A stretch of 64,000 nucleotides of DNA from positions 16,430,001 to 16,494,000 of the forward strand of contig JBHGNT010000006.1 of the NCBI GenBank assembly GCA_043228905.1, in the 5' to 3' direction. The stretch is from Azolla caroliniana (lineage: Eukaryota; Plantae; Polypodiophyta). Positions 25,292-64,000 of the stretch are shown piece after piece. The notes under the pieces are model-generated. The model made no database searches, was not told the origin of the DNA, and was given only the letters and a program-made list of their open reading frames with translations. Every line of letters begins with the position of its first letter. The first letter of the stretch is position 1. Position numbers and translations under genes: made by a program.

Positions 25292-25353
25292 TGTCACGTT
25301 GTTACGCACGTGCGTGTAGAAAGAGGCGGGGCCACGGGGGCCTTGAACCAAGG

Positions 25354-25387
<34 letters not shown>

Positions 25388-28300: not shown

Positions 28301-31300
28301 GACGAACCTCCGGCATCCGTCTGGCCCGACAGTCTCGTCCGCATCATCCACCGGACACCCCTTTATCAGGATGTCGTCCAAGAATGGGATGGTGATGTCC
28401 GGGATGCAGTCCCTCAGCACCTTGTTCATTGCGTTCACCATATGCGCCACCGAATTCGTCCCGCCTTGTGGTAGGGTACACATCCGTACTAGGCCGAGAG
28501 GGGTTCGCATCGTCATGATATCCCTGCTCTCCACGGCTAGCTAGAACTGGTCGTACCTCGAGTATAAGTCACCAACCGAATAGATCGACCTTCCAGCGAA
28601 GGCCTCTGCGAACTCGTCTATGGTCGGTCTGATTCCTGCATTACGGATGGTCACCCTGTTGACCGGTTGCAGGTCCTGAATGAAGCGCAGCGTGCCGTTC
28701 TTCTTCAACACCGTAAACCACCGATTCGAATACGGGGCACTCGACGGTTCGAGGATGCCCATCTCCACCTTTTGCTTCAGAAGCTCCATCAACTTCGGGA
28801 TGTCCGCTCTCGGCACCGGAATCGGTTTGAGATTCCACGGTACATGCGGTACCGTGAAGATCACCATCGGTTCGACGATCGTCGGGTCCACGCACCCGAT
28901 CTCCTCCGGCGAGAACGCGAAGGCTTTCCCATGCCTTCCTAGCATTCTCTGAAACCTGTCCTCCTACGCCGGCAGTAGAAAGCCACCCCCACAGACCTTG
29001 AGCTCCCGTAGCGTTATGTCGGTGAACCGGTGCCCTATGCCAGCCGGATTCCGTAAACTTGGGTCTGATGCGACCCCTTTTATCTGCTCCTCGCTGCCCT
29101 TCGACAAGGGTGCCGCGACTGGCCTCACCTTCCGGTCCACAGTCTTGTACTTTGTATCCACCCGGGCCGTCCGATCCGACCCGATCCTTTCCCCAAAGTC
29201 CATGATGACTTTGTACATTCCCATGGAACTAACCGGAACGGTCCGGTCTTCTCTAAGGCCTTCACTGATCACCTTTCATAACTCGCCCAAGGTGTTGTCA
29301 AAAGAGACCGCCTCCACGGTGCCGCTGATTTCTTCATCGGAGGAGAGGACTCTGCATCCCGTGAGCCACTCCTCCGCTCGCTTCCTCTCCCAGCCGCTGA
29401 CGCCGGCTATAGTACAACCTCCGTTTTAGGAGAACCAAAACTTCCTACCTACTGCACATGTGTGGGGTTCTTCCGATACGTCTGGACTACCACGGCCCCA
29501 CGCCTTGATAGCCCTCTCTAAAAATCCCCTCGGTTGTCGCCGCCGAGGGTCTCGCGATTCCTCTCATGATTCGGACGTACGGTCATGAATTGGACGGAAT
29601 GCTGACCGTCCTGGCTCTTGACGCGCGCATACGCCGAACCGTTGTCCAGCACCTTCGTCTCCATGCGTGCTGTCGTAATGTATGGCTCGCCGAGAATCAC
29701 CGGGTGCGAGGATGTTTCCTGCACGAAGAAATGTTGATCTATCTCGACGTCACCGACCTTTATGCGTATATTCGGGCACGCACCATGCAGCTCCTTCGTA
29801 GCACGCGTCGTCGTGCGTATCTTCCACCAATGCTTGGTGTTGATCGGCCATTTACCCCTCTTGTAGAAATCCATGGACATCAGGTTGATTTCAGATCCAT
29901 GGTCTACCAAGGTCACCACCGGTTCCGGAACGTCGCCAATCCGCACAGGGGTTTCCATAGTTGCCTTGGCCCAATGCGGCTTCGCGTAGTGGCTTCCCGC
30001 CAACTCGTCTTCTAGGGTCGTGTCTTCTAAGTGCATAGTCCGCACCTCCACCGGCTTCTCCGGTTTCGGCTCCGTCGAGAGCCTCTTCCGCTTCAACAAG
30101 TCTACGATGGAGTCGTGGAACTCCCTCTTGGCGATTCCCAGCACCTCCCACAATGACAACTCCACTTTACTGTCAAGGATCCGCTCTTCAAGGACCTTCC
30201 GTAGGTCCGTTGCTCTCTCAATTTCAGTGCTCAACCGAAACCCCGTCTGCTTCTTCCCATCCAGCGCGCCTGGGTTGCCGGCACCGGTCGGTTTCGGTCC
30301 GAATCGGGTCTCGTACCTCTGCGGGGGACCGACCCCTCCGGCCTTCCCTACCCGTTTTGTCTTCCACCAGAACCTCATAGTTCTGGCAAGCGGCTTCTAC
30401 GAAGCCCGTTTTCTCTTCAATTGGATCGTCCCATCCGGTGACCACCTGGACGCGCTATTCCGCGCGGTCCGCCTCTTCCTTCTTCAGCCGAACTCCGGAG
30501 AGGCCTTCTAGCACCAACGGCCAGAATCCCGAGTCCTTCGCCTTCCGGGTCTCATCACGCCCGACCCAAATTCCCGCCGACACTGAGTAGTTAACGACTT
30601 CTACATGCCATGCCGCGGCCTCCTCCATCAACCTCTTCATTCCGTCGTGCCCCGTATTCAGTTCTAGGGCTCTCCTGGTCTCGCTCGTGCGCACCCGCCC
30701 GTTCCAGAGGTACACCACGTTGGTCCTGAGTGCGTTGGCGAAATCCGCGCAATCCTTCCGAATGTGACCAATCGCGTCACACCACATGCACCGCTACCCA
30801 GCCGGCGGCTTCCGGTCGCGAGGTTGTTCGCCGCTGTCTCTCCGTGCCTGTGCGATCTACAAGTCGCGTACCATCTGTGTCAGCTCCTCCAGAGCCGCAC
30901 CTCTGGATGGGCCTCTGACCACGTCATTCAATGCCGACCCCAACTCCACCCAAATTCGGGTCTCTTCCTTCCTAGCACCGATACCGGCTCCTAGAGCCTC
31001 CTCGCTGACACCGGCCCTGACCCCGACGAGCTTTCGTCGCTCCAATCGCACCGCTTGTCTAAACAGCTCAAACCCGTTTTACCACGGCCTAGTCTGCCGT
31101 GAGCCCTTCGTCCGTTTCCAATAGGGGACCCACCTTTTCCCTGTCGAGCGCATCCACTGACTTGACAAATAGTAGTACTCGACTTGTTTCGAGCACGGTC
31201 CGGTCTAGCGTCGACAGCCGCACGAACCATTTTTCAAACTCCTGGAGGAGCGCCGATGTGTTCCTCCCTTTTCCGGGGCTTTTCACCCATGCCATGAAGT

Positions 31301-31752
31301 CCCGCCTCGACAACCAAAGCGAGTCGTCAAACTCGTACTTCTCGAGGAGCTGCAGCTCGAACTCCTCCCAAATCTGGCATCCGGCCAGCACCTCGAGCAC
31401 CTCCACGTGGATGCTCAGCGTCACCACCCGAGGGAATCCGGACAACCGCCTGTCCACCAGGATATCCCTCATGATCCTTTCGGCCCGGTAAGCCTCCAAA
31501 TAACTTGTGGCGTCTTTCCCTCTGAACTGGCCTATAGTGCCGACGATCGATTAAATCGCTCTGTCGAGAGTACCCGTCCCCTCACGAGCGCTTACCAGCC
31601 GGTCGACGGCTACTGCCATTGCCTCTGGTAGCTCCAATCCCGTCATCTTTCGACTCTTTTGCCACCTTTTCATGTCAGGTTCACCAATGATGTCGCGGTT
31701 TTACGTGCGTGCATGTAGAAAGAGGTGGGGCCACGGGGGCCTTGAACCGAGG

Positions 31753-31811
<59 letters not shown>

Positions 31812-32430
31812 AAGAGAAGAGAGGAGAAGGTTCGCAGATACGCAGAAGGGAGAAGGAAAGAGAAAGAAATTGCACACTTAATTACTGTAACAGTCGATTA
31901 CAATATCCAGATATTGCAAACTGTGACGAATAGAACCGGCAAGGCAGCGATAGACCCGACACGGGGATCCTACTCACGCACACAGACAGAACACACTAGA
32001 CTCAGAGAAACAAAAAGGGGAGAGCCTTTGCTGGAAGCACACGGGCTGTCCACGAAGTAGAGGCAGTGAACTCCCGACACCCACAGAGACCGACGATCGG
32101 AGGAGAAGAGAAAGCTTGGCACTCAGATCTGCAGCAACACTCCATCCTTGCCAACGCACGACACCCTTTCCTCCTTCTCTCCCTCCTTAAATAGTTCGCA
32201 AAAAGGGGGGGGGGGGTCCCCTTTCTCCCTAGTCAAAACCGCTTTATTCCCTGTCCCTTTCAACAGAGATACGCACAAATCCCCTAATGAATGTGTACTA
32301 CCTAGTATTTACATTAGCCGACCTAATTACGAATTATGTACAAAATATCAATTCTCGCGTCCACCCGTGTAAGAGCCGGTTCATGCGCCTTTTTCTCCGA
32401 TTCCGCCCATGGCCGGTTTTCTTCACGACA
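25292..32430 (-). mobile_element. Element C: full-length degenerate tRNA-Trp-primed gypsy
   Basis: LTRs 31691-32430 and 25292-25999; TSD ccgg/ccgg; PBS tggtgaacctgacatgaa 31669-31686; PPT 26000-26016; gag CMWCDAIGHIRKDC, protease LVDHGSEINL, RT PQGGTNS/FLDD, integrase YNPEANG, WFGPY. Confidence 0.96.
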
Positions 32431-34414
32431 CCGGTCGAGGATTTCAGGGATCAGAGGGAGCGGATAGCGGTTGCACAGTGTGAGTTTGTTGAGACCCCAG
32501 TAGTCTACACATAAGCGTAGAGAGTCGTCGTTCTTCACGAATAATATGGGGGCCTTGGCCGGTGACTTAGAAGGTTGAATAATCCTTTCACGAGGTTCTC
32601 ATTGAGATACACTCGAAGGGCCTTTAGCTCTGGTGTAGACAATGCATATAGAGGACCAAAGGGTGGACACATGCCTTCTTGAAGATCGATGGGATAGTCG
32701 TAGAGGCGGTGTTCAGGCAACGATCTGCATTACGTTTCTTAAATACATCAGAGAAGTCTTTATACTTGTCGGGAATAGCGTGGAGTGTGTTAGAAGTAGC
32801 TCCACAAATGGCGAGCGGGTGATGAACTAAGGGTGGAGTAGTCGATTCAGGATCAACTGTCTCTGAAGGATGTGAATTGGAATTGGCCTTCATAGTTGTG
32901 CGCGAGCATCCTGGCTCGTTAAATGTGATCGAGCGATGGCATCAATCCACTATTGGATTGTGCGGCTCTAGCCATGATAGTCCTAAGAAGATCGGATGCC
33001 GAGGGGATGCGATGAGGTAAAAGGGGAGCTCCTCCTAGTGGGAGCCCACACGAAGCCCTAATGGAATTGTAATCTTAGTAATTGCTCCTGATGAGAGGAC
33101 ACACCCATCAATGGCTTCAACATGAATGGGTTTTGAGAGGCATATGATGGGTATCTCATGTGCTTGGGTGAATGCGACATCGATGAAGCAAGAAGACACT
33201 CCAGAATCAAGTAAGGCGAGAGACTTAATGGAACCAGAATTAAAAGAAAGGCATACCTCCAATGTGAAATTGCCTGATGTTCTTGCTATGGAACCACGAG
33301 AATGTGGATGACGGGAGACGTCCAGCTGCACGGCTCCTACTGCAACCGGACAATGTTGTTTTCCGGATACTAGGGTCTATTGGCTCGATGGAATGGTGCG
33401 CGATTACTCCTAGGATAATGGCGACAGAGATGACCCGAGCCCCCACAATATAAGCGCAATTCATTAGCCCGCTGAAATTGTCGTTCGGCATCAATCAATG
33501 GCCGAAAGCGAGCTTAATCAATTTCCATTGGGACTGGAGCATCTGCCAAAGTAGGGGAGTGTGATGCCACCGGAAGGAGTGATAATTGGGGTTGTACGAC
33601 TGGGGCATGTCGTGGATGTGAATGAGTCAAACCCCAAGTCTGGCGCTCTTCCTGACGAAATTGAAAAAGACGATTGTCAGAATGGACTGCTTGTGAAATC
33701 GCTTGGGATAACGTGGGTTTAGGAAAGTTCAAGAGAAGATTCTTGACATTGCTCTGAAGGCCCTGCCGAAAGTGATCAATTAAAGCTTGATCATCCCAGT
33801 TGACATCACATGCTGGTTGTCGAAATTCCGAAGCATAGACAAAAGTTGCATGCAAACCTTGTTCGAGTGCATAAAGCTTGGTGAGTGTTGTACATCACCG
33901 GTCCGTCTCGCCAAATGTGGCCTCTAGCTCGGTGAGGAAGGCAAGAAAGTCCTCCAATAGAGGTGACAAAGTTTCCACTAAAGGTGCAAACCAAGCTTGG
34001 GTCGAACCCGGAGAGGAGGGTGCCCACAAGTCCAACTTGTCGAAGACCATCTGCATAACGTTGAGGTTGTAATGGAATGATTAGGCGAATTTGGTTGATG
34101 AACCCCAGGAAACGTGACCTCATTCCATCAAATTTTTCTGGGAGGCTAATCTTAGGCTTAAGAAAATGAGAAGAAGCTAGATCAGATGTTGGTAGAAGAT
34201 TGGGCTACGGGCAAGGTTGTGATGGGGTATTAGGCTTTATGGGTTATGAGAATAGGGAGGCACCGACTTGAAGTTCTCGTAAAGAATTCCAAAGGGCTTC
34301 ATTTTCAAGCTGGAGTTGTTGTAAGGCTGTCATTATCTGGCTTGTCACAGGCTGGGTCGGACATGGCTACAACTAATGAGAAGGAGAGCTACGAGGATGG
34401 GAAGGTGAACAAAC

Positions 34415-34748
34415 TAACATGAGTAGAAGATATACGCAAGAGAGTAGAAGATAATCAAAGGGATGAGTTGATTAATTGAAAGACTTTGTAATTGGTGTTG
34501 TTCACTTTGATTGTAATCTAGATGAACACACATATTTATACAAGTTCTGAGATTGAATATCCCTAGAATATACCTAAGAAATATCTCTGAAATATCCCTA
34601 AGAAATATCTCTAGAATATACTCATCTAGAATATACCATAGAACATTTCTAGAATATACCATAGAACTCTAGAATATACTAAACACTAGAATATTCTATA
34701 TGCTAGACTATACAATATTAACCATATAGAATTTATATATAGCTTACA
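34415..34748 (-). repeat. Probable 5' LTR of the Tcn1-like element, with ctagaatata-type short repeats
   Basis: TGTAAGC terminus on - strand, TATAAATA box at 34533-34540, position upstream of gag; no second LTR to confirm the inner boundary. Confidence 0.6.
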
Positions 34749-35398
34749 GGTGTCCAAATGGTTTATCTAATATTAAGTATTGGGTGTGTTATAGGTCAGA
34801 GGTTCGAGTCTATGACACAATCTTGTTGAGGCACTTTGTTTTGAAAGAAGCTCTTTACATTCTTGAATATCTTCTTCAAGTTCTGCAACCATTTTCTTAA
34901 GGCTTTCAATCTCAACTATTTGGAGCTTAGTGATCTCATTCATTAGTATCCTAATCGATTCACATTGTTTGTTTATGGTTTCTTGAAGAGAAATCAAGTG
35001 ACTCATAATCATTTTGTCCATTGTGGCTGAGAGAGAGAGAGAGAGAGAGAGATTTAGCGTTCATAGAGAGGTCAATACCTAAGTACAAAAGTTATCATGA
35101 TGTGTGTCTCCTTCTTAAGAAGGGATATTCATACTTTTAAGCACCAAGTCTCAATGTGCGTGTGCGAGCGAGAAAGAGACAAAGATATATTAATGTTTAC
35201 TGAGATCAAATTTGGCCCATGAGACAACTGATTACAGTAATGGGATATGTACCCCTCATCGAAAATAAAAAAATAGAAAAAATAAATAAAAGAGTTTTAG
35301 CATGATAAAAAAAATGTTATGGGGTGTGGCATGTTCTATAAAAGAAAAGGAGAGGGGGTTTTTGATGCGGGTCTGCCCCATGGTCTCCCATTCCCTTA

Positions 35399-39705: not shown

Positions 39706-40713
39706 TTGCTCCTCCCCCTCACCTTCTCCTCCATCCTACCACAGAGCTTCAGCCCACCGCAACCACTGGTCTCCTTCCCACGAACCTCCTCTGACGATGC
39801 CGATCTTCATATCTACTGCCTTACGCCGATGGCTCGTGGAGAAACGCTAGCACCCCCACACCTGAATGCCATGGACATCGCCAGGAAGCTTAACATCGAC
39901 ACGGTCACCAACTCCATCCGGAAGAAGTTGGACCTGTCATCGCTAGGAGAAAGGCATTTCGAAATCCCTCCTGTAGAGGCGTTGCAGCGATATTTCGGAC
40001 CATAGGACCATATTCCTCCTCCGCCAAGGCCTATAGAACGAACTAGATCTCGGATCCCTTCTTCCGTGAAGTTGCCAAGTTCCTACTAGATGTCGACTGC
40101 GTACATGTCAACGCATATGGGATGCCCAAGCCGAAGGCGGGCATCATTATCGATACCTTTGAAGGGTCTGCGGTCGATTGGGGGGTCATCACAGGACCGG
40201 CGTTAAGGGAAGGCATGCATGCGTATCAAGCAGGCAAAAAGCTCAGGCCGATCATACAACAGTACCTTATGGTACTATTCCCACCCCGAGGCCTGGCGGC
40301 ACCGCAGCCCAGCCGACCCACGCCCCTGCCCCGATCCGTGAAGCGCAGGTTAGCGGAGTTAGCGGCCCCAGAGTGGGTAGAGGAACCCCAACTTGCCCAG
40401 CCAGACACGAGGACAACACCTCCTGACCAGTCGGACACACGGACAATGCAGGAGGAACAGCCGGCACGTTCCATGGAAGCAGCCCCAAAGCCAGACACCG
40501 AAACACGAAAGGATAGCCCCAGACCGAAATGACGTAGATTGGACATGAAAGATGGGCAGGGGTTGGTCAAAGACGTCCCCACGACGACAGAGACACGGAC
40601 CGAAGGCGATGGGTCCGCAGCTACGGAACCCAATACCACCTTCGAAATCATCCAGGAGCCACGACTGATCATTACGACCCAGTCCCAATGAGGGAAAGCC
40701 GTATTGATGGCGG
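39706..40713 (+). pseudogene. N-terminal half of a decayed long ORF (continues at 59542); probable retroelement accessory ORF
   Basis: ORFs 39706.. and 40122..; FEGSAVDWGVITGPAL motif; frame joins 59542 across the GCGG TSD. Confidence 0.65.
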
Positions 40714-41830
40714 TGTCGTGAAGATTTTCGGCAATAGTGTGAAAATCCCATAAAACGTACAAAATCGAGTATGAATCATGTAATACAATAATTGTGAAGA
40801 TAAAATTTTTTATATCTAAGTACAAAATGATGGAGGTTTCGAATGCACTTTATTACACGAGAAATGGACAAATAAATGTCAAGATATGAGGGTATAAAGT
40901 TTGTGAAAAGAAAAGAGAAAATTGTGAGATATCCCACATAGGCACGACAAATACGGCTCTCATCATATATAAGGTGGAGCAAAAGATATTATCTTTGTGT
41001 CTATGTGTGGAGCATAGAGAGTTCAAGGTAACTTGAACTTAGAGTGGAGGTGGCTAGCTACTCGAAAAGGGTTTTGGCCAACCAAAACCGGACCGGCGAT
41101 GGAGCCGGTGATCCGACGGCATCTGACGGCAATCCGGCGGCGGCATGTGGCACTGGTATCCGGCGGCGGCATCGGTATCCGGCATCGGCGTCGGCATCCG
41201 GCGGCGGCATCGGTATCCGGCGACGGTATCCGGCGAACCGGCGAACCGGCGACTAGATAAAATAAATATATAAAAATATATACATATTTACATATACAAG
41301 GAGGGCAAGTATGGATTTGAACCTTGCACCTCCAAGTTAGGAGTCAAATGGCTTACCATTAAGCCATAGTATTTAGTTAAAATTATATTTCTATCATTGT
41401 ACTTTTACATGTAAATTCTCATTCATGAGTGCTAAAATGAGTGACATGGTTAGCATGCACCACATGTAATACTTAAGCGCCAAATGGCAAACATGCAATT
41501 TATGCATGTCTTGTACCCTCACATGCATCATATGCATGAGAGCATCTATAAAAGAGGGAAGGGGGAGGAGAAAAACATGGTTTTTTTTTTATGAAAATTA
41601 AGAAGAAGAATTTCGTTATCAAATCAATCGTGTAATCTCATCTTCTCTGTTTTCCTAATCTATCTTAAGTACTTTCTCGCCAAAGCTTGTATCGACTCTA
41701 AATCCTTCTTGTCCAAAACCCCGGCGGTTCCGCCTCACGATCCTTGCGTAGTGACGGATCTTCACGACATAATTAAGTGGTGAACCCGACGTGAAAGAGG
41801 CGGTAGGAAGGATCAAGTCGAGATTAATAC

Positions 41831-44035
41831 TTGGAGATGGCGTCCTCAAGCAACCAAGCGGGAGAGCTCGAAAGGATGATGCTAATCGTCGAGCAAATGA
41901 TGAGATCTCGGGACAACGACGTGAGCGTGGAGAAGGCTGTCGATCGTGTCGTAGAGCTCGAGGGCCAATTCGATGGAAGGAACGTTACGAAGTTCCTTGA
42001 TGCATATAAGAGGGAGATGAATCAAAGGGACGTGTCCGAGGCACGTCAAATCACAAGCTTCAAGAGAGTTGTCGCCAACAACATCCAAAGACGCGTCATC
42101 GAGCTTCAAGAAGGAAAGACAACATGGTCTGAGTTCGAGAAAACGATACTATCGGAGTTCGTGACTGAAGACTCAACAAGGATGACTCGACATGCCTTGA
42201 TGAAGTGGATAGAGAAGAAGAATAAGAAGATGAGCGTCTCGAGGGTGTACGATGAATTCGACCAGATGTTTAGTCGTCTCCCCAATACGGACCAAGTATT
42301 GCTTGAAGAGGACAAGACTTTGTACTTCTTGAAGGCCGTGGACATAAAGGATAGACGGGATTTGGGGACTCTTCTCGAAGTTGATACCCAAGCAAATGGG
42401 CTCGTAGCGGACTGGATCGCGGTGAAGCGGGCATGCAATAGGCTCGACAAGCGTCGCCAATGGGTTGATGACACCGACTTGATGGGACCGACTACCACGG
42501 AGAAAGCAAGACCGTCGAAAGTAGCTGAGCCGCCGAGACAAAGTAACATGGAAGAAAAGAAGATTGATGACGACATCATTGAAGAGCTAGCGAAGAAGTT
42601 CGAGAAGGTCACGCTAGCCAACATGAATTGTCGGGGCCCTAAAGGAAAAGAACCCTTTAGATGCGTGTGGTGCGATAACATGGACCACATGAGAAGGGAT
42701 TGTACGAGCCTTCGAGAGGCGATTCGACAAAATATCGTATACATAGAGGACAACATGATCTGCTCAAGCGAGACTAGAAGACCCCTACGGGTGAATTTCG
42801 GCAGAGGAGGAATGAAGAAATCTATGGAGGATGCCGATGCGACTCATGTGGATGCGATGCACTAAGTTGCGTCGGCCGGAATAAGAGTCGGGAAAGACAA
42901 GACTGAAGCTGCTAGAGCGGGAGCAAAGTTTTGGACTTCCGTTCTCGAATATGAGAAGAAGGGAAAAGTCACATCGAATGAGGTAGAGCTTGCGGACCGA
43001 AGCGTGCAAAACATAACCGGGTGGTCGGATCCGGTGGACGACAACACCATACTCGCGGAGGTGATGTGCGACAACCACGAGGTGTTCGTCGAAGAGAAGA
43101 GAAAGAGAATAGAAGAGCAAGGGCCATCAAAAAGACATGAAACAAGGAACGCGAAAAAGAAGGACGATGTGGAGACGAGTCGACCAATACAAACGGAGGA
43201 ACGAGAATCAAGCCGAAAAGGGGAGCTGAGCATACGAGTTGAAGAAACGGTTCGGCCCGTGAAGGTTGGTGTCGAAGACCCCACTCGGAGGACAAGGACC
43301 ATACCTACCTATAAGCTAAGGTCGGACATAGAGCAGACGACGGACCTAAAGAAGATTCTCGAAGAACGAGTTCTTGATAGCCACGTAACATTGTCCTTGA
43401 GGGAATTGCTTGGCATTACGAAGAAGGAGTTCCATGACACGATCATGGACCTTGTAAAGAGAAAGAGACAACAATCGGATGAGGAAGAAGAGAAGCCGCA
43501 GAAAGCAAAAACGAATGCCATAACGATGGCAAGAGACGAAATCGATGAAGATATGGTGGACAACCACTACACTCGACCTCATTGGGCACGAGCGACAACG
43601 GAGACGCCGGTGAAGATCGGGGAGAAGAAAGAGACTGTCGTAGCCTTGATCGACCACGGCTCGGAGATCAACCTCATGTCAACCGACTTCTACAAAAAGG
43701 GAAGATGGCCAATCAATACAAACCACGGATGGAAGATTCGCGCGGCAACAAAGTCTACGGAGGACTTATACGGAGCTTGTCCCAATGTCAAAGTCACGAT
43801 CGGGGATGTGGAGATGGATCAACACTTCTTCGTACAAGAATCGGCGTCGCATCCTGTCATCCTAGGGCAACCTTATATCACATCATCTCGGATGGAGACC
43901 AAAGTGTTTGATAATGGAGCAGCCTTCGCACGAATAAAGAGTCTTGACAACCAAAGATCGGTCCAATTCCTAACAGTGCGAGCCAATCATGAAAGGAATC
44001 GAGATAGTCTCGGAGGCGAATCCTCGGATTTTTAG
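41831..44035 (+). pseudogene. gag: Element A gag-protease ORF (in-frame stop at 42863-42865)
   Basis: FDGRNVTKFL, CVWCDNMDHMRRDC knuckle, LIDHGSEINLM protease; ORFs 41831 and 43004 share a frame. Confidence 0.92.
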
Positions 44036-44090
44036 AGCGGACTATTGAAGCATGGGGCACAAATAGTCCGAGCAATCACAAGACCCCACA
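44026..44090 (+). promoter_or_regulatory. Predicted -1 ribosomal frameshift signal (GGAUUUU + H-type pseudoknot)
   Basis: ggatttt 44026-32 before the gag TAG; stem cggactatt/aatagtccg; loop tgggg pairs with cccca 44084-88; pol is in the -1 frame; conserved in C. Confidence 0.8.
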
Positions 44091-47000
44091 AGAAAGAAGA
44101 ATGCGTGGATTGCAAGGAGAAGCAACATGTGTCACACCTAGTGGCGCATGTAAACTAGTACTACCCGACAAGAAGCACAAGCGCCGGATACAAGAATTTG
44201 AGAAGATGCTGAAAGAAGAGAACATAATAGAAGAAGGAGAGTTCGTGACTCATATTATGGAAGAAGCCTCATTTAACGACACCATCGACGAAATTGAGGA
44301 CGTCGTGGACTTGAGCTATCTTCACAACCAACGTGTGATTTCGGTTAACTCCGTCAACATGTACGCTATCATCAATGAATACCGTCGTGGCATCTCGATG
44401 AATGAAGCTGACATTAACACGAAATATAAAACAGTGGATAAGAAGATCAAGCCAGTTGCGGTTCCGCTACCGGAAGATAGCTGGCAAAAGATGAAGGAAG
44501 TCGCTAACGATCCAAGCTTAAGAGATCCGAAGAAGATAGGTCATGACTTCACCAAAGAGACGAAGGGGAAGCTATGAGTTGGAAAGGAGGATTTCCTTCT
44601 CCCTGAAGAGGAGCGAATGTTTCGCGATATGCTTGAGAGACATGGGAAGGCTTTCACATTCTTCCCACGAGAAATCGGATGCGCCGACCCAAAGATTATA
44701 GAGCCAATGGTGATCTTCACGGTGCCTCATGTGCCTTGGAACTTGAAACCGATACCGGTTCCGAGAGCACACCTTCCGAAGCTGATCGAGCTCTTAAAGG
44801 AGAAGGTGAGTATGGGAATTCTAGAACCGTCGAATGCTCCTTATTCCAATAGGTGGTTCACGGTGCTGAAGAAGAATGGATCATTGCGATTCATCCAAGA
44901 TCTTCAACCCGTCAACAAGGTGACAATTCGAAATGCCGGAATCGGTCCGAGCGTGGACGAATTTGCCGAAGCATTTGCGGGCCGGTCCATCTACTCCATT
45001 GGCGATCTCTACTCCGGATATGACCAATTCCAATTGGCGATCGACAGTCGGGACATTACAACCATGAGGACTCCGATTGGGCTTGTGCGGATGTGTACCT
45101 TACCCCAAGGCGCAACGAACTCGGTGGCTCATATGGTGAATGCCATGAATAAAGTCTTGAAGGATTGCATTCCGGACATCACGATGCCATTCTTGGATGA
45201 TATTCCGATAAAAGGATGTTCGGATGAGGAGAAAGATGAATTGAAAGATAAGGAAGGTTGTAGAAAGTTCGTTGCGGATCATATGAAAGATTGCGAGAAG
45301 GTGCTTCAAAGGCTCGAAGATGCGAATTTGACATTTTCGGGAGAAAAATCCGCATTCGGGCAACCAGAGATCTTGGTGGTAGGTCACTTGTGTGGAGCAT
45401 ACGGCCGGAAGCCCTCGCCATCCAAAGTGAACGCAATCCAAGACATGAAAGAAGAATGCGAAAACCAAACGGAGGTTCGAAGGTTCCTTGGAGCGTGCGC
45501 GTTTTATCATATATGGATTCCTCACTACGCTCATGTCACCGAACCATTATATGGACTACTAAGGAAAAGAATAAAGTTCGAATGGCGAGACGAGCACACA
45601 GAGGCGATGCGAAGATTAAAGAAACTGCTTCTTGAAGCTCCAGCACTAAGGAAGGCCGACTATGCCAAAGGGAAACCAATTTACGTGACTGTAGATACGA
45701 GCCCAACCGGAATCGGGTGGGTCATCAATCAAGAAGGTGAAGATAATGCGCGATATGCCATCCGGTTCGGAGCAAAGGTTCTCAGCGAACGGCAACAAAG
45801 ATATGCCCAAGTCAAGCGGGAACTTTGGGGTATTGTGTCGGCAGTGAAGATGGACAAAGATTACCTGATCGGGTCAGAAGTGATAATAGAGACAGATTGT
45901 CTCCCAATTCTCGGAATGGTCTCGGGATGTGTGACCCCAGATCTTGCTATGCTAAGGTGGATCGCCTACATCAAGTCTTTAAACCCAGAGATCCGTCACA
46001 TCGCAGGGAAGAAGAACGCCATGGCTGACATGCTGTCAAGGGCAAGATTTTCAAATGGAAGTAACATGGTTTCGGAAGATGAAGATGTCGCCCTCGACTT
46101 CTTCAAGATGGCTCGATTGTCGGCGGAAGACCAGGACACGCAAACCCTCCACGCCTTCAACGAGAACGAGTACGAAGGAGAGGGGTTACTCATCGTTAGA
46201 TTCCTAAGAACATTGACGACCGATGCTTCGTTGACAAAGGAGGAGGCCCTACGAATCCGGAAGAAAGCTTATCGATACTTCTTATAGGGAGGATTCCTTT
46301 GGCGACATCCAAAAAGAAGGATAGGAATACCACGTCGAGTGGTGGTAAAGAAAGAAGAGCAAGAGACGCTGATGACCGAATTCCACGAGAGTGCTTGGGC
46401 AGGTCATAGAGGAACATGGGCGACGTTCGAAAAATTGAAGGAGAAGTACTGGTGGCCAAGCATGTACAAAGATGTACTCCATTTCGTGTCCACATGTGGA
46501 ACTTGCCAAATATATTCAAATATACGTCATCGTGATGAGTTAAAGCCGACATACCCACTCACCATTCACTTCAAATGGATGGTGGATCTGGTCTCGATGC
46601 CAATGGGAGTGGGACAAATGAAGTACTTAGCGCTCGCAAGGGAAGACTTGACAAATCAAGTGGAAGGACGAGCCTTGATAAATAAGACGACTTCAGCCGT
46701 TTGTAAATTTTTACTTGAAGATGTTGTTTGCCGATATGGATGTGTAGGGAAGATAGTGGCCGACCGAGGGGAGTTGGACGCGCACGAAGCGACGGAGCTC
46801 TTCGAAAGACTAGGCGTGAAGCTCTCCCTCACGACTGCCTACAATCCGGAAGCAAATGGGAAGATCGAGCGAGGGCATGGACCTATCGTTAAAGCCATTG
46901 TACGGGCATGCAACGGTCGAGTCGGGAATTGGCCACGACTATTACCCTATGCCTTGTGGGCCGATAGAACGACACATAGCTCGGTGACAGGGTATATGCC

Positions 47001-47520
47001 GACGGAGCTTATGTATGGACAAAAGCCGATTATGCCCATCGAAAGGACGATCGCCTCATGGGTAGCGATACCGTGGGAGAACGAGATGAGCCGTGAAGAG
47101 TTATTAGCGGCGCGGATAAGGCAACTTGAAAGAAGACCTGAAGATTTAGAAAAAGCGCGAAAGATGATGAAGGCAGCCCGAGTAAAGAACAAAGTTCGGT
47201 TCGACAACACGCATCGACTTCGTCCCAAGAAGATTGAAGAAGGGGATTGGGTTTTGGTTTACGACAGCACCCTTGACAATCAACATAGTACGACAAGGAA
47301 GTTCGCAAGAAGATGGTTCGGGCCGTATGTGGTGACAAGTGCCAACGATAATGCCACATACCACCTTGTGGAACTAGACGGATCAAGGATGGCCGTACCC
47401 ATTGGGGGAAAAAGAGTAAAGCTTTTCAAGAAAAGACAAGACAAGGATCCTGACCTCGATTACCTCGACGATGGACATAATAGGCCGGATGAAAATGAAG
47501 ACATGGAGGAATCTAATTGA
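44032..47520 (+). pseudogene. pol: Element A pol: RT-RNase H-integrase (stops at ~44575 and ~46285)
   Basis: LRFIQDLQPVN, DLYSGYDQF, PQGATNS, FLDD, VDTSPTGIG, HES..AGHRG..C..C, VADRG, YNPEANGKIERGH, WFGPY; no chromodomain. Confidence 0.94.
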
Positions 47521-49335
47521 TCATCGTAGCCGAAATCTCACTTCTTCTCTTCTTGGCACGTACCGGAGGACGTGCGGTTTGGTGGGAGTGGATGTCGTGA
47601 AGATTTTCGGCAATAGTGTGAAAATCCCATAAAACGTACAAAATCGAGTATGAATCATGTAATACAATAATTGTGAAGATAACATTTTTTATATCTAAGT
47701 ACAAAATGATGGAGGTTTCGAATGCACTTTATTACACGAGAAATGGACAAATAAATGTCAAGATATGAGGGTATAAAGTTTGTGAAAAGAAAAGAGAAAA
47801 TTGTGAGATATCCCACATAGGCACGACAAATACGGCTCTCATCATATATAAGGTGGAGCAAAAGATATTATCTTTGTGTCTATGTGTGGAGCATAGAGAG
47901 TTCAAGGTAACTTGAACTTAGAGTGGAGGTGGCTAGCTACTCGAAAAGGGTTTTGGCCAACCAAAACCGAACCGGCGATGGATCCGGTGATCCGACGGCA
48001 TCCGACGGCAATCCGGCGGCGGCATGCGGCACCGGTATCCGGCGTCGGTATCCGGTGGCGGTATCCGGCAGCGGTGGCGGTACCGGTATCCGGCGTCGGC
48101 GACGGTATCCGGCGAACCGGCGACTAGATAAAATAAATATATAAAAATATATACATATACAAGGAGGGCAAGTATGGATTTGAACCTTGCACCTCCAAGT
48201 TAGGAGTCAAATGGCTTACCATTAAGCCATAGTATTTAATTGAAATTATATTTCTATCATTGTACTTTTACATGTAAATTCTCATTCATGAGTGCTAAAA
48301 TGAGTGACATGGTTAGCATGCACCATATGTAATACTTAAGCGCCAAATGGCAAACATGCAATTTATGCATGTCTTGTACCCTCACATGCATCATATGCAT
48401 GAGAGCATCTATAAAAGAGGGAAGGGGGAGGAGAAAAACATGGTTTTTTTTTTATGAAAATTAAGAAGAAGAATTTCATTATCAAATCAATCGTGTAATC
48501 TCATCTTCTCTCTTTTCCCAATCTATCTTAAGTACTTTCTCGCCAAAGCTTGTATCGACTCTAAATCCTTCTTGTCCAGAACCCCGGCGGTTCCGCCTCA
48601 CGATCCGTGCGTAGTGATGGATCTTCACGACATAATTAAGTCGATGTCGTGACGATTTTCGGCTACGGTGTGAAACCGAGTGAGACGAATAAACCAATGA
48701 TGTGCAACATTGCACATACACTTAGCAAATAAGCCTCCTAAGGCCTAGTGGCACTTGAGTTCATACAGAGGGGTGCAATCAAGGTTTGAACCTTGCACCT
48801 CTAAGATACAAGATAATTGCCTTACCACTAGGACAACTATCATATAATGTAGATTTTATGTATTTCCTTTTCATATACAAATTATAGACGAAACAACCAT
48901 AGAAAACCATGTGCACAAAACCATGGTTTTAAACCCATGGTTTGTGCATGACATAAGCAAAACCGTGTGCACAAAACCATGGTTTTAGCCCATGGTTTTG
49001 TGCATGTCACAAGCATGGAAAGACCTATAAAAGCCTCTAGTTGGGCTTGTGTAAGGGGGGCTCAATATGTGATATCACCAACACCACTATCATCAATATA
49101 ATTATATTTGTCTTTATCTTCTTCATATTTTTCTACTTCTCAAGTGTACAATTTTTCTTCTTCTCAAGTAAACCAATTTCATCTAATCTTACATTGATCG
49201 TCATCTCTTCGATAATTCCGCGAACATCCTCCCCAGTCCAAGACCCCGGTGGTCGCTCGAGTAGCACACGCACGCGCGAATCTTCGCGACATCATTTGGT
49301 GAACCCGACGTGAAGAGCAGCAGGGGAGGACGAAG

Positions 49336-52300
49336 ATGGATGGCGAATATCTCATGGAGGCAATGTCAAGAAGGATGATGGAGTTTCTGAGAGAAGGGAA
49401 AAGAAGAAATGAAGCCCAACAAGCCGTCGACAGGGTAGTCGAGCGAGTGAGCTATTTCAACGGCGCCGAAGTCCAAAGTTTCCTAAAAGTCTACAATGCG
49501 GAGATGGATTCAAGAGGTGTGGACAAAGCTATGAGGCTAGAGTACTTTTGTCGGGTGGTGTCTCAACCGATCTTCAAAGATGTAAAAGAGCTTCTAGAAG
49601 CTCATGATTCGTGGGCGACTTTCGAGAAGGCTCTATTGGAGGAATATGGCTATGAGAGACTGAAGGGACGAGATCGACGCAACTTCGACCAATGGGTGAC
49701 ATCAGCGAAGACCCACGAAGGTGCGACACAAGCATTCGTAGACTTCGAGCATCATTTTTCTCAATTGTCGGAGCGGGAACAAAGATTGGTGGGGGTCGAT
49801 AAGATCCTTATGTTCGTGAAGTCAATCGATCGAATGGAAAGGATGGCGATCGGCCTCAAACTCGAAGAAGATGATGGTGCAAATGGCCTCATCGAGGATT
49901 GGAGCAAAGTGGAAAGTGTATGCCGACTACACGATAAGGGGCAAGCGAGAATATCGGCAACAGCAAGACGGCCTATGAGGGACGATCGAAGAGGGACGAG
50001 ATGCAACAACGCGCCACCAACAAAAGAAATGAAGCTTAAAAGGGAGACAAAACCGAGGCGAATGGTGATCGAGGAAGAAGAGACCTCCCAACAAATGCGG
50101 GTTAATGAAGTGGCCGATACAAAGGCTCTGGTTCGGTATGACGGTACCGAGAGAGAATGTGTGAAACAAGTCACCTTCTTGTCTTACAAAGAAACGACGG
50201 CGAAGGAGGAGGCCGATGACTCGAGGACGGCGAACGCCACTTCGAGGGAGGATAAATGTTTCGGAACACGCATTGTTTACGAAACATCGGGTGATGAAGG
50301 CGCAAGCATTAGAAAATCTTGCATGATCGAGGGAGATAAAGTGTTTGAGTTCGACGTGATTGAGGAGGTAGCCATGACAAACGACATCGAGCCGCAGGTG
50401 GCTATGGATGAGTCGACGACGGATAGCCATGTCGACACTTTCTTCACGCTTGTTCCAGAGACTTCGGCGGTTGCACCCATGTGCCAACGTGAGACCGGAG
50501 AGACGGAAGGTGGTGACGGGAAGACAAAGGCCCAACACAAGGAGGAAGAAGATCGAGGAAGAAAGGATATCCCCACACCTAATCTAGAGACTTCGGCGGT
50601 TGTGCACGTGCGCCAACGTGAGACCGGAGAGACGGAATGTGTGGACAAAAAAGGGGACGACCGGAAGGGCGATGAAGAAGACAAGGTAAATGTGCATGAG
50701 CGAAGGGATTCCTTCACACCGGTTTCGGAGACTTCGGCAGTCGAGACTGTTGTCTGTCTGGCTGGACTAGCCTCAACACAGGTGTCTACCCGACACTTCT
50801 CCAAAGGGGTGGTAAGGATTGGATGCTAGGTTACACGCATAAGATGATTACGATTAAGCACGGACGACAAACAATACAAGATACAGATAAATACACAATA
50901 ATTACTATTGTATTACTTCCGTCAAAAAAACTTTACAAATCATCGGATCCTTTTATAGGCATCCGGCAAGGTTACAATCGGTGCGCTTAGGCAACCGACA
51001 TCCGAATCGGTTCGGATCCGGATCGGTAAAACTGTACCGAATCCGTCCCTCCGAATAATAATTCTACTATTACTTCCTATTATCCGATCCGATTCCGCCT
51101 TCCCACTTGTCCTTGCTCTTCTGACCGGCCAACACATGGCACGCCCGTGGGAAAGTGCCTTGCACTTCGAATCCACTCCCGGCCTCAGTCTTCCTCCAAA
51201 ATATCGAGCACACTTTGCTCGATAGTGTCAAGTGGTGCTTCTTCCTCCTGTTCCTGTTCCTTGCCTGCCTGGTCTCCGACCTCCTGTTGGGTAGGCTGTT
51301 CCGTAAAAATTTTCTGCTCCGGCTCTGCTTGATTCCGTGGTGCCGGTGCTTCCTCATCGCTTCGTCCGGGTTCTTCCTGTTCTCCCTCCGTTTCTGGCTC
51401 TGTTCTGTTACCGGTGTCGCTTTCTCCGGTCTCGACTGGTCGACTTGATATGCCTCCTTCCTCTGCTCTGGTGTCTTCCGGTCTCAGCTCTTCTTCTTCT
51501 CCGGCATCGGTCCGCTCCTGCTCTTCTTCAAGTTCGTCTTCAGGTATTCCTCGTCAGGGTTGTTCGGTGTCGGTTGGTTCATCTTCCGTCGGTCGCGTTC
51601 CCTCACCAATAGTGGTTGGCGTCGTTCTTCCCTTAGCTTCCTGTCGTAACCGGTCCTGCTCGTATCTCTTCAACTCCAACTGAGTTGCGAGCTGCCCGTC
51701 ATCCAACCTCTCTACCAACCCTCGGATTTCTTTGAGGTGTTCTTCTGCTAAAGTGTAGAAATCCTCTGACAATTCCTCCGCTTTGTTCGGGTCGGTTCGT
51801 GTGGATACCGGATCCTTCTGTCGGTTTTCCGGGATGGTCCTCGTTAGTATTGGTGTCGGTTCTTCCTCGGTCTGAATGTCTTCAGCAGCGTCTGTCGGTG
51901 TCGGTTCCTCATCTTGCCGGATTTCCGGGTTTCGCTTGAACGGGTTGGCTGGCATATTTCCTTTATACGGCTTTAGCCGAAATCCATTTGCCCACTTGCC
52001 GATGACATCTCCAGACAATGTGCCGAGCTGATACGGCCCATTATACTCCTTGGTGATCCAGAACGGTCCGGTCCATCCAAACCGCAACTTTCCCGGCATG
52101 TTCCCCATCCTTGTCTGGAATAGTAGCACCGGTTTCCCGACTTCGAACTCCTTTTCATTGCCACGCCGGTGTCGGTCCACGAAGGCTTTTCTCCTCCTTT
52201 GCTCCAGTTCGAGTTGTAGTAAGCTGGCTATTTGGTTTTCCTCTAATTCCAACAGCGTTGCCAGTCGGATTCGTTCGGACTCGTTCTCACTTAAGCGCTC

Positions 52301-58300: not shown

Positions 58301-58814
58301 GTCGAACCGGAAGACGATCCGGCCGAGATTCCGGCTCGAACGAAGGAAGATCCACATGGGAGCCGATCGACCGCGGCTGACCTGGCTGAAACCTGATTCG
58401 GCGAAAATCGATCGAACGATTCCAATCCAAAAGGGGGTCGACCCAGCCAGAATCAATCGGTCGAGCCCGACTCGGGGAAATGCGAATGTAGACGAAGGCC
58501 AACCCAGCCAAGAAGCGATCAGCGGAGACCGATCCGGAGAAGGGCAAACCTGGCAAAATCGAAGATGGACACGAACGATCCACAATACCCGGTTGAAGAA
58601 ACCCAATCGAAGGACAAGCGCGGTGGACGAAGGAAGAGCGGTCGTATCGACGACATCGTTCGGTAGATCTACTACAACCGATTGGGGAAGAAGGTGTGAG
58701 CGCCGGATATGGTGGATCGGGTGGCTACGGTGGTTCGGTTGGAAAGATTGCGCATACTCGAAGTGGAAGACGAAGTCAGACGAGGTTGACGAGCATGCAG
58801 AGGAACTCGGTTGA
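49336..58814 (+). CDS. Element B ORF split by D (49336-50747 + 58130-58814, ~698 aa): capsid-like N-terminus plus uncharacterised tail
   Basis: YFNGAEVQSFLKVYNAEM..LEEDDGANGLIEDW aligns with A/C gag; removing D and one GAGAC gives the open reading ..SAVETVCRHK.. Confidence 0.8.
50748..58124 (-). mobile_element. Element D: young full-length non-chromovirus gypsy (Athila/Tat-like RT)
   Basis: LTRs 57753-58124 and 50748-51134, near-identical apart from a 15-bp indel and a few substitutions; 5-bp TSD gagac; PBS tggcgaccac ~57737-57746. Confidence 0.97.
51554..57700 (-). pseudogene. gag-pol: Element D single-frame gag-pol polyprotein with one TGA at 56504-56506
   Basis: ORFs 56504..57784 and 51554..56431 share a frame; E has Arg at the stop position; IIDGGSG, CVDYRKLN, FLDGFSGYNQI, FLDD, VDASD, WGLDFVGP, YYPQANG, WTGPF. 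Confidence 0.94.
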
Positions 58815-59541
58815 TCACCGTTGCCAAAGATCTCACCTCTTCACCTTTCTCAGCACATACCGGAGGATGTGCGGGTTTGGTGGGGGTGGATGTCGTGACG
58901 ATTTTCGGCTACGGTGTGAAACCGAGTGAGACGAATAAACCAATGATGTGCAACATTGCACATACACTTAGCAAATAAGCCTCCTAAGGCCTAGTGGCAC
59001 TTGAGTCCATACAGAGGGGTGCAAGCAAGGTTTGAACCTTGCACCTCTAAGATACAAGATAATTGCCTTACCACTAGGACAACTATCATATAGTGTAGAT
59101 TTTATGTATTTCCTTTTCATATACAAATTATAGACGAAACAACCATAGAAAACCATGTGCACAAAACCATGGTTTTAAACCCATGGTTTGTGCATGACAT
59201 AAGCAAAACCGTGTGCACAAAACCATGGTTTTAGCCCATGGTTTTGTGCATGTCACAAGCATGGAAAGACCTATAAAAGCCTCTAGTTGGGCTTGTGTAA
59301 GGGGGGCTCAATATGTGATATCACCAACACCACTATCATCAATATAATTATATTTTTCTTTATCTTCTTCATATTTTTCTACTTCTCAAGTGTACAATTT
59401 TTCTTCTTCTCAAGTAAACCAATTTCATCTAATCTTACATTGATCGTCATCTCTTCGATAATTCCGCGAACATCCTCCCCAGTCCAAGACCCCGGTGGTC
59501 GCTCGAGTAGCACACGCACGCGCGAATCTTCGCGACAGCGG

Positions 59542-62275: not shown

Positions 62276-62901
62276 TAACGAGAATCTGCGGAATAATCTT
62301 CGGCCACAACCAAGACTTAGATCACTTAATGATAATCAAACACAGTAAAAAATGGAGAAATGGAAGTAAGTACACAAACAGAAGTGAATACACAGGATGT
62401 TAACGTGGAAAACCCTAAACGGGAAAAACCACGGGAGCCCACAGACTCCAAACTATCACTATATGAGGAGAATACAATGAAGAACACAGAGGCAACAACC
62501 TCGTCCTCACACTCTTCGCCTGTCGGCGGTTACAACAGAGACTTACTCTGTTTCTCTCTGTCTCTCTCTCTCTTTCTCTCTCTCAATTGCGCTCTGTACA
62601 ACAGTTGCACACAATAACACTATACAACAAAATAATGACAACCCTCATCAAGAGTTTGCCTTAGGTCATATTTATACTAATATGACTTTCGGGCTATTTA
62701 CAAATATAGCCCTACTGGGCTCTCTGGAACATATTTACATATATGTCCCTTCATCCGGTGGAGGTTCTCACCGGGCCTGCAACATCCGGTTCTCACCGGG
62801 CCCTCATCATCCGGTTCTCACTGGGCCTTCATCATCCGGTTCTCACCAGGTCTTCATTGCCGGGTACTCATCTCCCATTCGAAGGGACCGAAATCCTAAC
62901 A
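62276..62901 (-). mobile_element. Solo LTR related to the Tork-like copia family at 4767-11260
   Basis: Shares cggccacaacc, aaaaccacgggagcccac, taggtcatatttatact, gggaccga..aaca with those LTRs; 5-bp TSD aaaac/aaaat. Confidence 0.85.
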
Positions 62902-63168
62902 AAAATTTGTCGAGCGTAAAAGTCAACAAGTGAAAACTCGTCCAGTGTAAAAGTCGACAAGTGAAAACTAGTCGACTGTAAAAGTTGACGAGTGAAAAGT
63001 TTTCGAGAGAAAAATCATCACTTCTAAAAGTCTTTGAGTGTAAAGTTGACAAATGAAAACTCGTCAAATGTAAGAGGCAACAAGCGAAAAGACGATGAGT
63101 GAAAACTCGTTGAGTGTAAAAGTCGACAAGTGAAAAGACAACGAGTGTAAAAGCCGATGAGTGAAAAC
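62902..63168. repeat. Degenerate ~31-bp tandem repeat (gtgaaaactcgtcgagtgtaaaagtcgacaa-like)
   Basis: Repeated gtgaaaac and gtgtaaaagtc half-units. Confidence 0.85.
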
Positions 63169-63279
63169 TGTTGGGAACAAGTGTTACCTAATGGACAAGT
63201 AAGACAAGGTGTGAAACGAGTCAAAGGGAGCCGAGCAATAAAAATCGAACAAAGGGAGCCGAGTATTAAGGAGGAACGG

Positions 63280-64000
63280 TGTCGTGAAGATCCGTCACTA
63301 CGCGCAGATCGTGAGGCGGAACCGCCGGGGTTCTGGACCGAAAGGACTCGAAGTTGGCACAAGCTTTAGCGGGAAAGGAATTAAGATAGATTGAAAGAGA
63401 GACATTGAGATAAGATAGAACGCTTGATTTTAGATTGAGAGAGAGATTAAGAACTCTTGACTTTAGATTTCAAGAACAAGGTATATCATCCAAAGGATAA
63501 CGAATTTTCTTCTTAATATTAATTTTGATTTAAAGTACAAAGCTTTTTTTTATCAAAAAATCCCCCCTCTTTTTACATTCTAATTTTTTATTATTTTCTT
63601 TTTTACCCTTCAATTTTACATTCCTTTCCTACCATCTGTCTCTTGGCTCCCACGTTGGTTCTCAACGCAACTGCCCAAGTCTCTAGATGGAGTGTCCTAC
63701 ATGGGTAACACCATCGTCCATCTCTTGGGTCTCACGTTGCCACATCGGCTTGAACTGCCCAAGTCTCTGGAACATGTGTGCTCCTCACATAGACACTCCT
63801 TCTACATTCTAATTTTTTACCTTTCAATTTTACATTCGTTTCCTACCATCATTCTCTTGGGTCCCACATTGGTTCTCAACGCAACTGCCCAAGTCTCTAG
63901 ATGGAGTGTGTCATTGGTTTGCTAAATCAACATACAATCTTCTTGTATCATGGGTTCGAATCCCATTTCCTACATGGGTATCACCACCGTCCATCTCTTG
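63280..64000 (-). mobile_element. LTR of an element-A relative, running off the window
   Basis: 63280-63400 is the reverse complement of the A LTR 3' end (ccccggcggttccgcctcacgatc...cttcacgaca); internal aactgcccaagtctct repeats; flank acgg. Confidence 0.82.

What the first reader, a model, noticed from the sequence alone, without database searches (positions are those of the whole stretch)
41300..41373. Antisense tRNA-like Pol III promoter cassette inside the LTRs of A, B and the right-edge LTR
Seen, antisense to each LTR. A: TGGCTTAATGG (41366-56) and GGTTCAAATCC (41323-13), with D-stem ggctt/aagcc and a T5 run about 35 nt further on; also at 48176-48229. B: TGTCCTAGTGG and GGTTCAAACCT with T-stem caagg/ccttg (48782-48835; again near 59030-59080). 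Right-edge LTR: TGTGTCATTGG (63907) and a perfect T-arm atggg-TTCGAAT-cccat (63950-66). Box spacing of 43-46 nt is tRNA-like, while the surrounding LTR sequences are dissimilar. Established: A/B boxes bind TFIIIC, and Cassandra TRIMs carry 5S Pol III promoters in their LTRs. Inference: a tRNA-type analogue acting as an antisense small-RNA promoter or chromatin barrier. I did not see it in C or the 18520 solo LTR.
Basis: partly seen in the sequence, partly recalled or inferred. Interest (0 to 1): 0.75.

Follow-up and report, generated by a model that had tools for sequence, protein, structure and literature searches.

The report
Backwards tRNA promoter inside retrotransposon LTRs
Several families of plant jumping genes carry, facing backwards just upstream of their own promoter, a tRNA-gene-like signal whose two key boxes are kept while the DNA between them drifts, so it likely serves as a landing pad for the cell's tRNA-gene machinery that shields the promoter, while the third case reported is an unrelated scrap of a likely organelle tRNA gene.

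Summary
Two of three cases hold. Elements A and B are Phygy-type Ty3/gypsy retrotransposons. Both LTRs of each carry one homologous 54-bp A-box/B-box unit (43-nt spacing), antisense, 180-190 bp upstream of the LTR TATA; it is the only block their LTRs share. A box-independent metagenome sample found it in 13 of 65 LTRs with enough sequence, always antisense and 160-240 bp upstream of TATA where measured. Between distant families boxes are kept (16-17 of 21) while the spacer drifts (12-13 of 32). Carriers sit on two separate gag clades, so the unit was swapped or gained twice. It forms no cloverleaf, has no fixed terminator, and two relatives have deleted it. Best reading: a TFIIIC/TFIIIB landing pad guarding the Pol II promoter (inferred, 0.45); a neutral relic remains possible. 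The right-edge case is a 60-bp tRNA-Ser(GCU) fragment, likely organellar, inserted in an internal-type repeat. Closest known: Helenus/TRIMp3, from which it differs in host element and role. The scan noted antisense tRNA-like units inside other genomes' gypsy elements, none in LTRs or matching this sequence.

The parts
41313..41366 (-). A-box/B-box unit in the 5' LTR of element A (A box 41366-41356, B box 41323-41314, spacing 43)
41300..41333 (-). Inverted repeat enclosing the B box (10-bp stem; the one structure shared by the A/B-type units)
41272..41276 (-). T5 run 37 nt past the B box (not positionally conserved in relatives)
41408..41554 (+). CATG-rich block and TATA box (41547-41554) of the LTR's predicted Pol II promoter, 180 bp from the A box
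   Evidence: promoter role inferred
40714..41769 (+). 5' LTR of element A, followed by the primer-binding site at 41778-41794 (tRNA-Trp type, isotype recalled)
41828..47520 (+). gag-pol of A (RT, RNase H, integrase), broken by in-frame stops and a frame change
47593..48632 (+). 3' LTR of A
48176..48229 (-). Unit in the 3' LTR of A
48645..49291 (+). 5' LTR of element B (gag-only; primer-binding site 49297-49313; TATA at 49026)
48782..48835 (-). Unit in the 5' LTR of B, 190 bp from the TATA
48741..48751 (+). Mirror-image A-box-like site 42 nt before the same near-palindromic B box (also at 58987-58997)
58891..59537 (+). 3' LTR of B
59028..59081 (-). Unit in the 3' LTR of B
63912..63971 (+). Not part of the unit: tRNA-Ser(GCU) fragment (anticodon arm, long variable arm, T arm; no D arm), likely organellar, inserted in one copy of an internal-type repeat

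Best explanation
The unit is a tRNA-gene-derived A-box/B-box module in U3 of several Phygy LTR families, pointing away from the LTR's TATA box, and it likely works as a DNA landing pad for TFIIIC and TFIIIB that keeps the adjacent Pol II promoter open and shielded from flanking chromatin or read-in transcription. Shown: the module, its spacing, orientation, distance to TATA, retention of the boxes between distant families, presence on two separate gag clades, and loss in some relatives. Inferred: TFIIIC binds the boxes; TFIIIB would then sit on the AT-rich stretch between the A box and the CATG block; this gives the element a portable boundary; any short antisense transcript is a by-product. 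Inferred origin: one capture of a tRNA gene or SINE head, then exchange between families by LTR recombination. It is an optional helper, not an essential part.
For: Box-independent sample of LTRs: unit in 13 of 65 LTRs with enough sequence, antisense in all 13, A box 160-240 bp upstream of TATA in the 12 LTRs measured. In an alignment of the TATA-anchored region the A-type and L051/L054/L075 units fall in register without gaps; box identity 16-17 of 21 against spacer 12-13 of 32 for A versus these three (Fisher p 0.002-0.011), 15-17 of 21 against 13-14 of 32 for B versus two of them. Invariant columns over 18 units are tRNA A14, A21, G53, T55, A58 plus two neighbouring purines (numbering recalled). 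All 22 A/B pairs at spacing 42-45 in 271 kb lie in Phygy LTRs, roughly 71 kb of that DNA. Two LTRs have a tandem second unit, and L054, L075 and L106 have a sense unit further downstream, so L054 and L075 promoters are bracketed by outward-facing units. No cloverleaf or fixed terminator. Precedent for Pol III complexes and tRNA-derived SINEs acting on neighbouring Pol II transcription and chromatin: PMC4228148 and PMC8136502 (abstracts read; yeast and mouse, the latter via CTCF).
Against: No binding, chromatin or transcript data. Within young families the boxes are not more invariant than the spacer (A-type 16/21 vs 26/32, p 0.79; B-type 16/21 vs 18/32, p 0.12), and only B-type boxes beat the rest of the LTR (p 0.0075; A-type p 0.17). 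A versus B: 17/21 vs 24/32, p 0.44; L022 versus L075 p 0.057. 52 of 65 LTRs lack it, including D in this window. L080 and L059 have deleted about 150 bp with both boxes, and L080's contig is recorded at 143-fold coverage. Box-breaking changes occur in L032, L049, L051, L075, L079b and L002. The distant units were spotted by their boxes, so that comparison is partly ascertained; independent SINE insertions would also share boxes. Nearly all loci come from one series of assemblies.
Confidence: 0.45

Rival explanations
1. Neutral relic: a tRNA-derived SINE head or tRNA pseudogene landed in U3 (once or several times) and hitchhikes with the neighbouring CATG/TATA block, spread by LTR recombination.
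For: No box excess within young families; absent from 52 of 65 LTRs and deleted in L080/L059; box-breaking changes in 6 of 18 units; A carries an AT-rich tail past the unit; Kojima notes that 'not a few' Repbase LTRs hold tRNA-like sequence (PMC10886601).
Against: Spacer has decayed to about 40% identity between A-type and L054-type units while both boxes and the 43-nt spacing persist at the same place; no free copy among 22 hits in 271 kb; extra units were gained by duplication and on the other side of the TATA.
Confidence: 0.3
2. Working antisense Pol III promoter whose RNA matters: a short RNA, or read-through into the element or flank, that tunes silencing or transcription of the element.
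For: Near-perfect boxes at tRNA spacing, AT-rich upstream DNA, and a T4 run within 60 nt in 14 of 19 units.
Against: Terminator distance 4-60 nt where present and none nearby in L022, L064, L106 and both B copies; sequence past the B box is not conserved between distant families (19-32% identity); no cloverleaf.
Confidence: 0.15
3. The selected feature is the hairpin around the B box, acting in the 3' end of the genomic RNA or as a DNA inverted repeat, and the boxes are by-standers.
For: Units fold better than shuffles (z -3.7 for A, -2.7 for B); 4 of 10 pairs show a change on both sides, 4 of 500 shuffles as high; either strand folds about equally well.
Against: Covariation score 0.176 is matched by a slid control (0.178 at -2); only 10 related sequences; the arm past the B box is not conserved in the L051/L054/L075 units, which keep the boxes.
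Confidence: 0.1

Closest known systems
Helenus / TRIMp3 (Kojima 2024, PMC10886601; parts 1-4 of 6 of the text and passages read, supplements not seen)
   Same: tRNA-like sequence inside LTRs, conserved around boxes A and B, not a functional tRNA, proposed to come from a SINE2 insertion into an LTR; function untested.
   Different: Helenus are non-coding TRIMs of 311-1263 bp in which the unit is proposed as the element's own Pol III promoter; the only plant case is a 120-bp LTR in Selaginella with 5-bp TSDs. Here the unit sits in 650-1150-bp LTRs with their own TATA, in gag-pol-coding (A), gag-only (B) and non-coding elements with 4-bp NCGN TSDs, and points away from the element. The paper expects autonomous partners not to share long LTR stretches with TRIMp3; it does not state orientation in the passages searched.
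Cassandra TRIM (as described in PMC10886601)
   Same: Pol III internal promoter carried in plant LTRs.
   Different: 5S-derived (type 1), transcribes the element itself, non-autonomous TRIM; this unit is tRNA-type, antisense, upstream of a TATA.
Phygy clade of non-chromovirus Ty3/gypsy elements (Neumann et al. 2019, PMC6317226; passages and one supplement row read)
   Same: 4-bp NCGN TSD, tRNA-Trp-type primer-binding site, compact gag-pol without extra ORF or chromodomain.
   Different: No Pol III-type module in Phygy LTRs appears in the passages read or in searches.
tDNA/ETC extra-transcriptional elements and B2 SINE boundaries (PMC4228148, PMC8136502; abstracts only)
   Same: What the unit most likely works like: Pol III factor sites or tRNA-derived repeats that block read-through and bound chromatin next to Pol II promoters.
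   Different: Those are host loci or free SINEs in yeast and mouse; here the site is a built-in part of a plant LTR, and nothing is shown experimentally.

Membership tests
Helenus (TRIMp3) | tRNA-like sequence with boxes A and B in both LTRs | tested here: met
Helenus (TRIMp3) | TRIM: short (311-1263 bp), no coding capacity | tested here: not met
   A is 7.9 kb with gag-pol, B carries a 508-codon gag-like frame, L076 unit is about 2.35 kb plus an LTR
Helenus (TRIMp3) | Pol III promoter placed to transcribe the element (proposed, as shown for Cassandra) | tested here: not met
   Unit is antisense and upstream of a TATA in 13 of 13 carriers; separate sense units exist in L054, L075, L106
Helenus (TRIMp3) | Actual Pol III transcription or factor binding | not testable with these tools
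   Needs ChIP or stranded reads
Cassandra | 5S rRNA-derived sequence in the LTR | tested here: not met
   No 5S match in Rfam scans
Phygy | 4-bp NCGN target site duplication | tested here: met
   A+B flanked by one NCGN duplication, D by another; definition
Phygy | tRNA-Trp primer-binding site | tested here: inconclusive
   17-nt site ending in TGG at 41778, 49297 and in D; the Trp assignment is recalled, not checked against a tRNA from a call
Phygy | Gypsy domain order, no chromodomain, no extra ORF, coding region fills the interior | tested here: met
Phygy | Placement in the Phygy clade on RT/RH/INT trees with REXdb references | not tested
   No reference sequences on hand; named relatives are Riccia and Adiantum proteins
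tRNA gene | Cloverleaf with acceptor stem and anticodon arm | tested here: not met
   ARAGORN 0 genes; no RF00005 match at E 10 over 41250-41420; two hairpins instead
tRNA-derived SINE | Free interspersed copies with tail and own TSD | tested here: inconclusive
   0 of 22 hits outside LTRs in 271 kb enriched for LTRs; no whole genome held
Organellar tRNA-Ser(GCU) fragment (right-edge case) | Identity to a high-depth tRNA sequence that occurs without the repeat, and absence from sister copies of the repeat | tested here: met
   63912-63971 matched with 0 differences by contigs of depth 792 (X4) and 1479-2032 (X21) against 6-25 for neighbours; repeat copies join across the insert; GCU anticodon, long variable arm. 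Mitochondrial rather than plastid origin is recalled, not tested.

The most novel reading that the evidence does not exclude
Protein-coding LTR retrotransposons of a non-seed plant have domesticated tRNA-gene promoters as a portable, swappable insulator: outward-facing TFIIIC/TFIIIB sites on one or both sides of their Pol II promoter that let them stay transcribable after inserting at CG sites in silent chromatin, traded between autonomous and non-autonomous families by LTR recombination.
Probability: 0.3. Interest if true: 0.8.

Novelty: new variant of a known kind. Interest (0 to 1): 0.55.

Why it matters
Pol III promoters in LTRs are known as the promoters of tiny non-coding TRIMs. A backwards unit beside the Pol II promoter of full-size elements cannot do that job, so if it is kept by selection it points to another use of tRNA-gene machinery by a transposon: self-insulation. 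Two searches turned up no plant case of tDNA/TFIIIC barrier activity in an LTR. The system is directly testable because sister families with none, one, two or three units, and natural deletions, exist side by side. It also suggests how tRNA-type TRIMp3 elements could arise from LTR modules of coding elements.

Tried and rejected
No whole genome is held for the window and the metagenome records could not be extended, so copy numbers and a genome-wide SINE search are open. Sequencing runs: 23 listed, 20 hold part of the stretch, no RNA holder listed; this says nothing on expression. Laying contigs of X1, X5, X4, X19 on 48000-49000: none of the 40 variant rows shown for the DNA runs falls in a B box, but 72 rows were not shown, so no test of conservation. 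Pattern scans of viral contigs (1, 0, 0 hits) and genome contigs (1 hit) gave only chance matches inside bacterial or phage coding DNA. Plasmid BLAST of the right-edge fragment gave only short matches at E 2-6. The Rfam hit RF04351 at the right edge (33.9 bits, gathering 68) is read as the antisense of a tRNA-Ser 3' half, not as a cis-element. The L051/L054/L075 within-family test failed through misalignment of the duplicated unit. The parent tRNA isotype of the unit was not determined. Rejected: functional tRNA gene; Cassandra-like promoter of the element; right-edge case as a third instance; single origin on the gag tree (p-AU 2e-36).

Full report
Setting. The window is a nest of LTR retrotransposons. 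Element A runs 40714-48632 (LTRs 1056 and 1040 bp, 21 mismatches) with a gypsy-order gag-pol broken by stops where eight relatives have Tyr at the first one. Element B runs 48645-59537 (647-bp LTRs, 4 mismatches), holds only a gag-like frame 36% identical to A's, and has element C nested in it. A, B and the sister element D (25292-32430) share a 17-nt primer-binding site (tRNA-Trp by recall) and 4-bp NCGN target duplications. This matches the Phygy clade: 4-bp NCGN TSD in 100%, tRNA-Trp in 81% (PMC6317226, passages and supplement file 3 row). Named relatives of A's RT-RNase H are from Riccia (up to 61% over most of the query) and Adiantum, so the host is taken as a non-seed land plant, unnamed.

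Observation. The A and B motifs are at the stated coordinates with 43-nt spacing in all four LTRs. They are not chance: 16 pairs at spacing 43 in 264 kb of window plus loci (L001, L125 and duplicate L077 left out) against 0.47 in 15 shuffles. The A and B units are one homologous 69-nt block (77%), the only BLAST match between the two LTRs. It is not a tRNA gene: ARAGORN finds none, Rfam gives no tRNA match over 41250-41420 at E 10, and it folds as two hairpins, one around each box.

The right-edge case is different. 63813-63909 is a second copy of 63599-63695, followed by an insert. Rfam aligns it as anticodon arm (GCU), long variable arm, T arm and 3' acceptor strand with no D arm (21.1 bits, below the gathering score of 29), so the 'A box' is a junction. 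Contigs of depth 792 in X4 and 1479-2032 in X21, a run with next to none of the LTR's words, match within 63912-63971 with 0 differences while neighbours have depth 6-25, and repeat copies in X1 and X4 join across the insert. That is an organellar-depth tRNA-Ser fragment captured by one copy; mitochondrial origin is my recall. The surrounding repeat matches internal regions of non-autonomous relatives and of B, not U3.

Family survey. Of 35 rows with a located LTR start, one is a duplicate (L077 of L076) and one is the partial right-edge LTR; 9 of the other 33 carry an antisense unit (window A and B, L002, L032, L051, L054, L075, both LTRs of L076). Of 32 more loci with 600 nt or more upstream but no located start, 4 carry it (L022, L049, L064, L079). 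That is 13 of 65. The A box lies 160-240 bp upstream of a TATA in the 12 LTRs measured, with 5-11 CATG motifs between. L051 and L054 have a tandem second unit; L054, L075 and L106 have a sense unit (spacing 44), downstream of the TATA in L054 and L075. All 22 A/B pairs at spacing 42-45 in 271 kb lie in these LTRs, roughly a quarter of that DNA. L080 and L059, close to L022, have lost about 150 bp including both boxes.

Is it selected? Mixed. Within A-type LTRs (4 sequences) boxes are 16/21 invariant against 26/32 in the spacer; within B-type (5) 16/21 against 18/32 (p 0.12), and only B-type boxes exceed the rest of the LTR (p 0.0075). At depth the signal is clear: the L051/L054/L075 LTRs share A's CATG block (71-77%), their units align with A's without gaps at the same place, and identity is 0.70 (A box), 0.42 (spacer), 0.77 (B box), 0.19 (20 nt beyond); 5 of 6 such cross-family pairs give Fisher p under 0.03, the sixth 0.057. 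Over 18 units the invariant columns are box positions. Caveat: those distant units were noticed by their boxes. On a gag tree of 34 rows the 4 carriers with gag sequence fall in two clades, each nested among non-carriers (one clade rejected, p-AU 2e-36), although the A and B spacers are 24/32 identical. The unit was therefore moved between lineages or gained twice from one source. Non-coding carriers and L051/L054/L075 have no gag to place.

RNA or DNA element? The first T4 run lies 4-60 nt past the B box in 14 of 19 units, and not within 200 nt in L022, L064, L106 or either B copy; sequence past the B box is not conserved at depth. The B-box hairpin has 4 of 10 pairs with changes on both sides (4 of 500 shuffles), but a slid control reaches the same covariation score and distant units do not keep the arm. 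What persists is two boxes, their spacing, their orientation and their distance from the TATA. That is the anatomy of a factor-binding site rather than of an RNA gene (inference). By established Pol III biology (recalled), TFIIIC on the boxes places TFIIIB upstream of the A box, here on the AT-rich stretch facing the CATG block. Pol III complexes block read-through and affect neighbouring Pol II promoters in yeast (PMC4228148, abstract), and B2 SINEs bound chromatin domains in mouse (PMC8136502, abstract). An element that inserts at CG sites could gain from such a boundary. I put this at 0.45, a hitchhiking relic at 0.30, a functional antisense RNA at 0.15, a hairpin role at 0.10. No expression or occupancy data were available.

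Comparison. Helenus/TRIMp3 (PMC10886601; parts 1-4 of 6 read) is the nearest kind: tRNA-like LTR sequence conserved at the boxes. This is not a Helenus: the carriers are not TRIMs, and the unit cannot transcribe the element. That paper also says that 'not a few' Repbase LTRs contain tRNA-like sequence and analysed only TRIMs, so coding cases may sit undescribed in Repbase or in its supplement, which I did not see. Searches (listings) found no description of such a unit in Phygy LTRs; passages of PMC7466625 and PMC11899658 did not bear on it. Earlier scan notes describe antisense tRNA-like units in the interior of gypsy elements of other genomes; none matched this sequence.

Verdict. Real, family-level, patchily conserved module; one of three reported cases is a false friend; function plausible but unshown. 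New variant of a known kind, interest 0.55.

Noticed in passing
window 40710-59541, junction 48633-48644: A and B are flanked by one shared 4-bp duplication and neither has its own; the 12-nt junction starts with A's LTR-to-primer-site spacer; the two outer flanks continue one decayed reading frame in phase. This looks like two unprocessed cDNAs of different families joined end to end and integrated as one unit. Against: LTR divergence differs (21 of 1032 in A, 4 of 647 in B), and an NCGN match has 1 in 16 odds by chance.
   Followed up: partly
window 34343-34817, minus strand: A 475-bp LTR of another gypsy type (TGTCA...TGACA, gag follows) has a perfect antisense B box 8 nt from its start and a loose A box 50 nt away (34751-34810 on the plus strand). 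One instance; may be chance.
   Followed up: partly
window 48741-48835 and 58987-59081; L064, L076: In B-type LTRs a mirror-image A-box-like site lies 42 nt on the other side of the near-palindromic B box, making a degenerate inverted duplication.
   Followed up: partly
L054:1624-1742, L075:1432-1550, L106:445-563: Sense-oriented A/B units (spacing 44) in LTRs, about 75-100 bp downstream of the TATA in L054 and L075; these would lie in the transcribed R region and are closer to the Helenus layout.
   Followed up: partly
L017 (upstream of the primer site), L076/L077, L002, L047, L079: Non-autonomous Phygy derivatives: a roughly 120-bp mini-LTR in L017 and non-coding interiors in the others, L076 in a tandem array sharing LTRs.
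   Followed up: no
window 63280-63600 and 63599-64000: The right-edge element keeps only about 240-300 bp alignable to A-type LTRs (U5 to about the TATA), joined to repeats that match internal regions of non-autonomous relatives and B 50445-50515.
   Followed up: partly
window 62887-63203: Degenerate 31-bp tandem array (8 copies in the repeat finder) left of the right-edge LTR.
   Followed up: no
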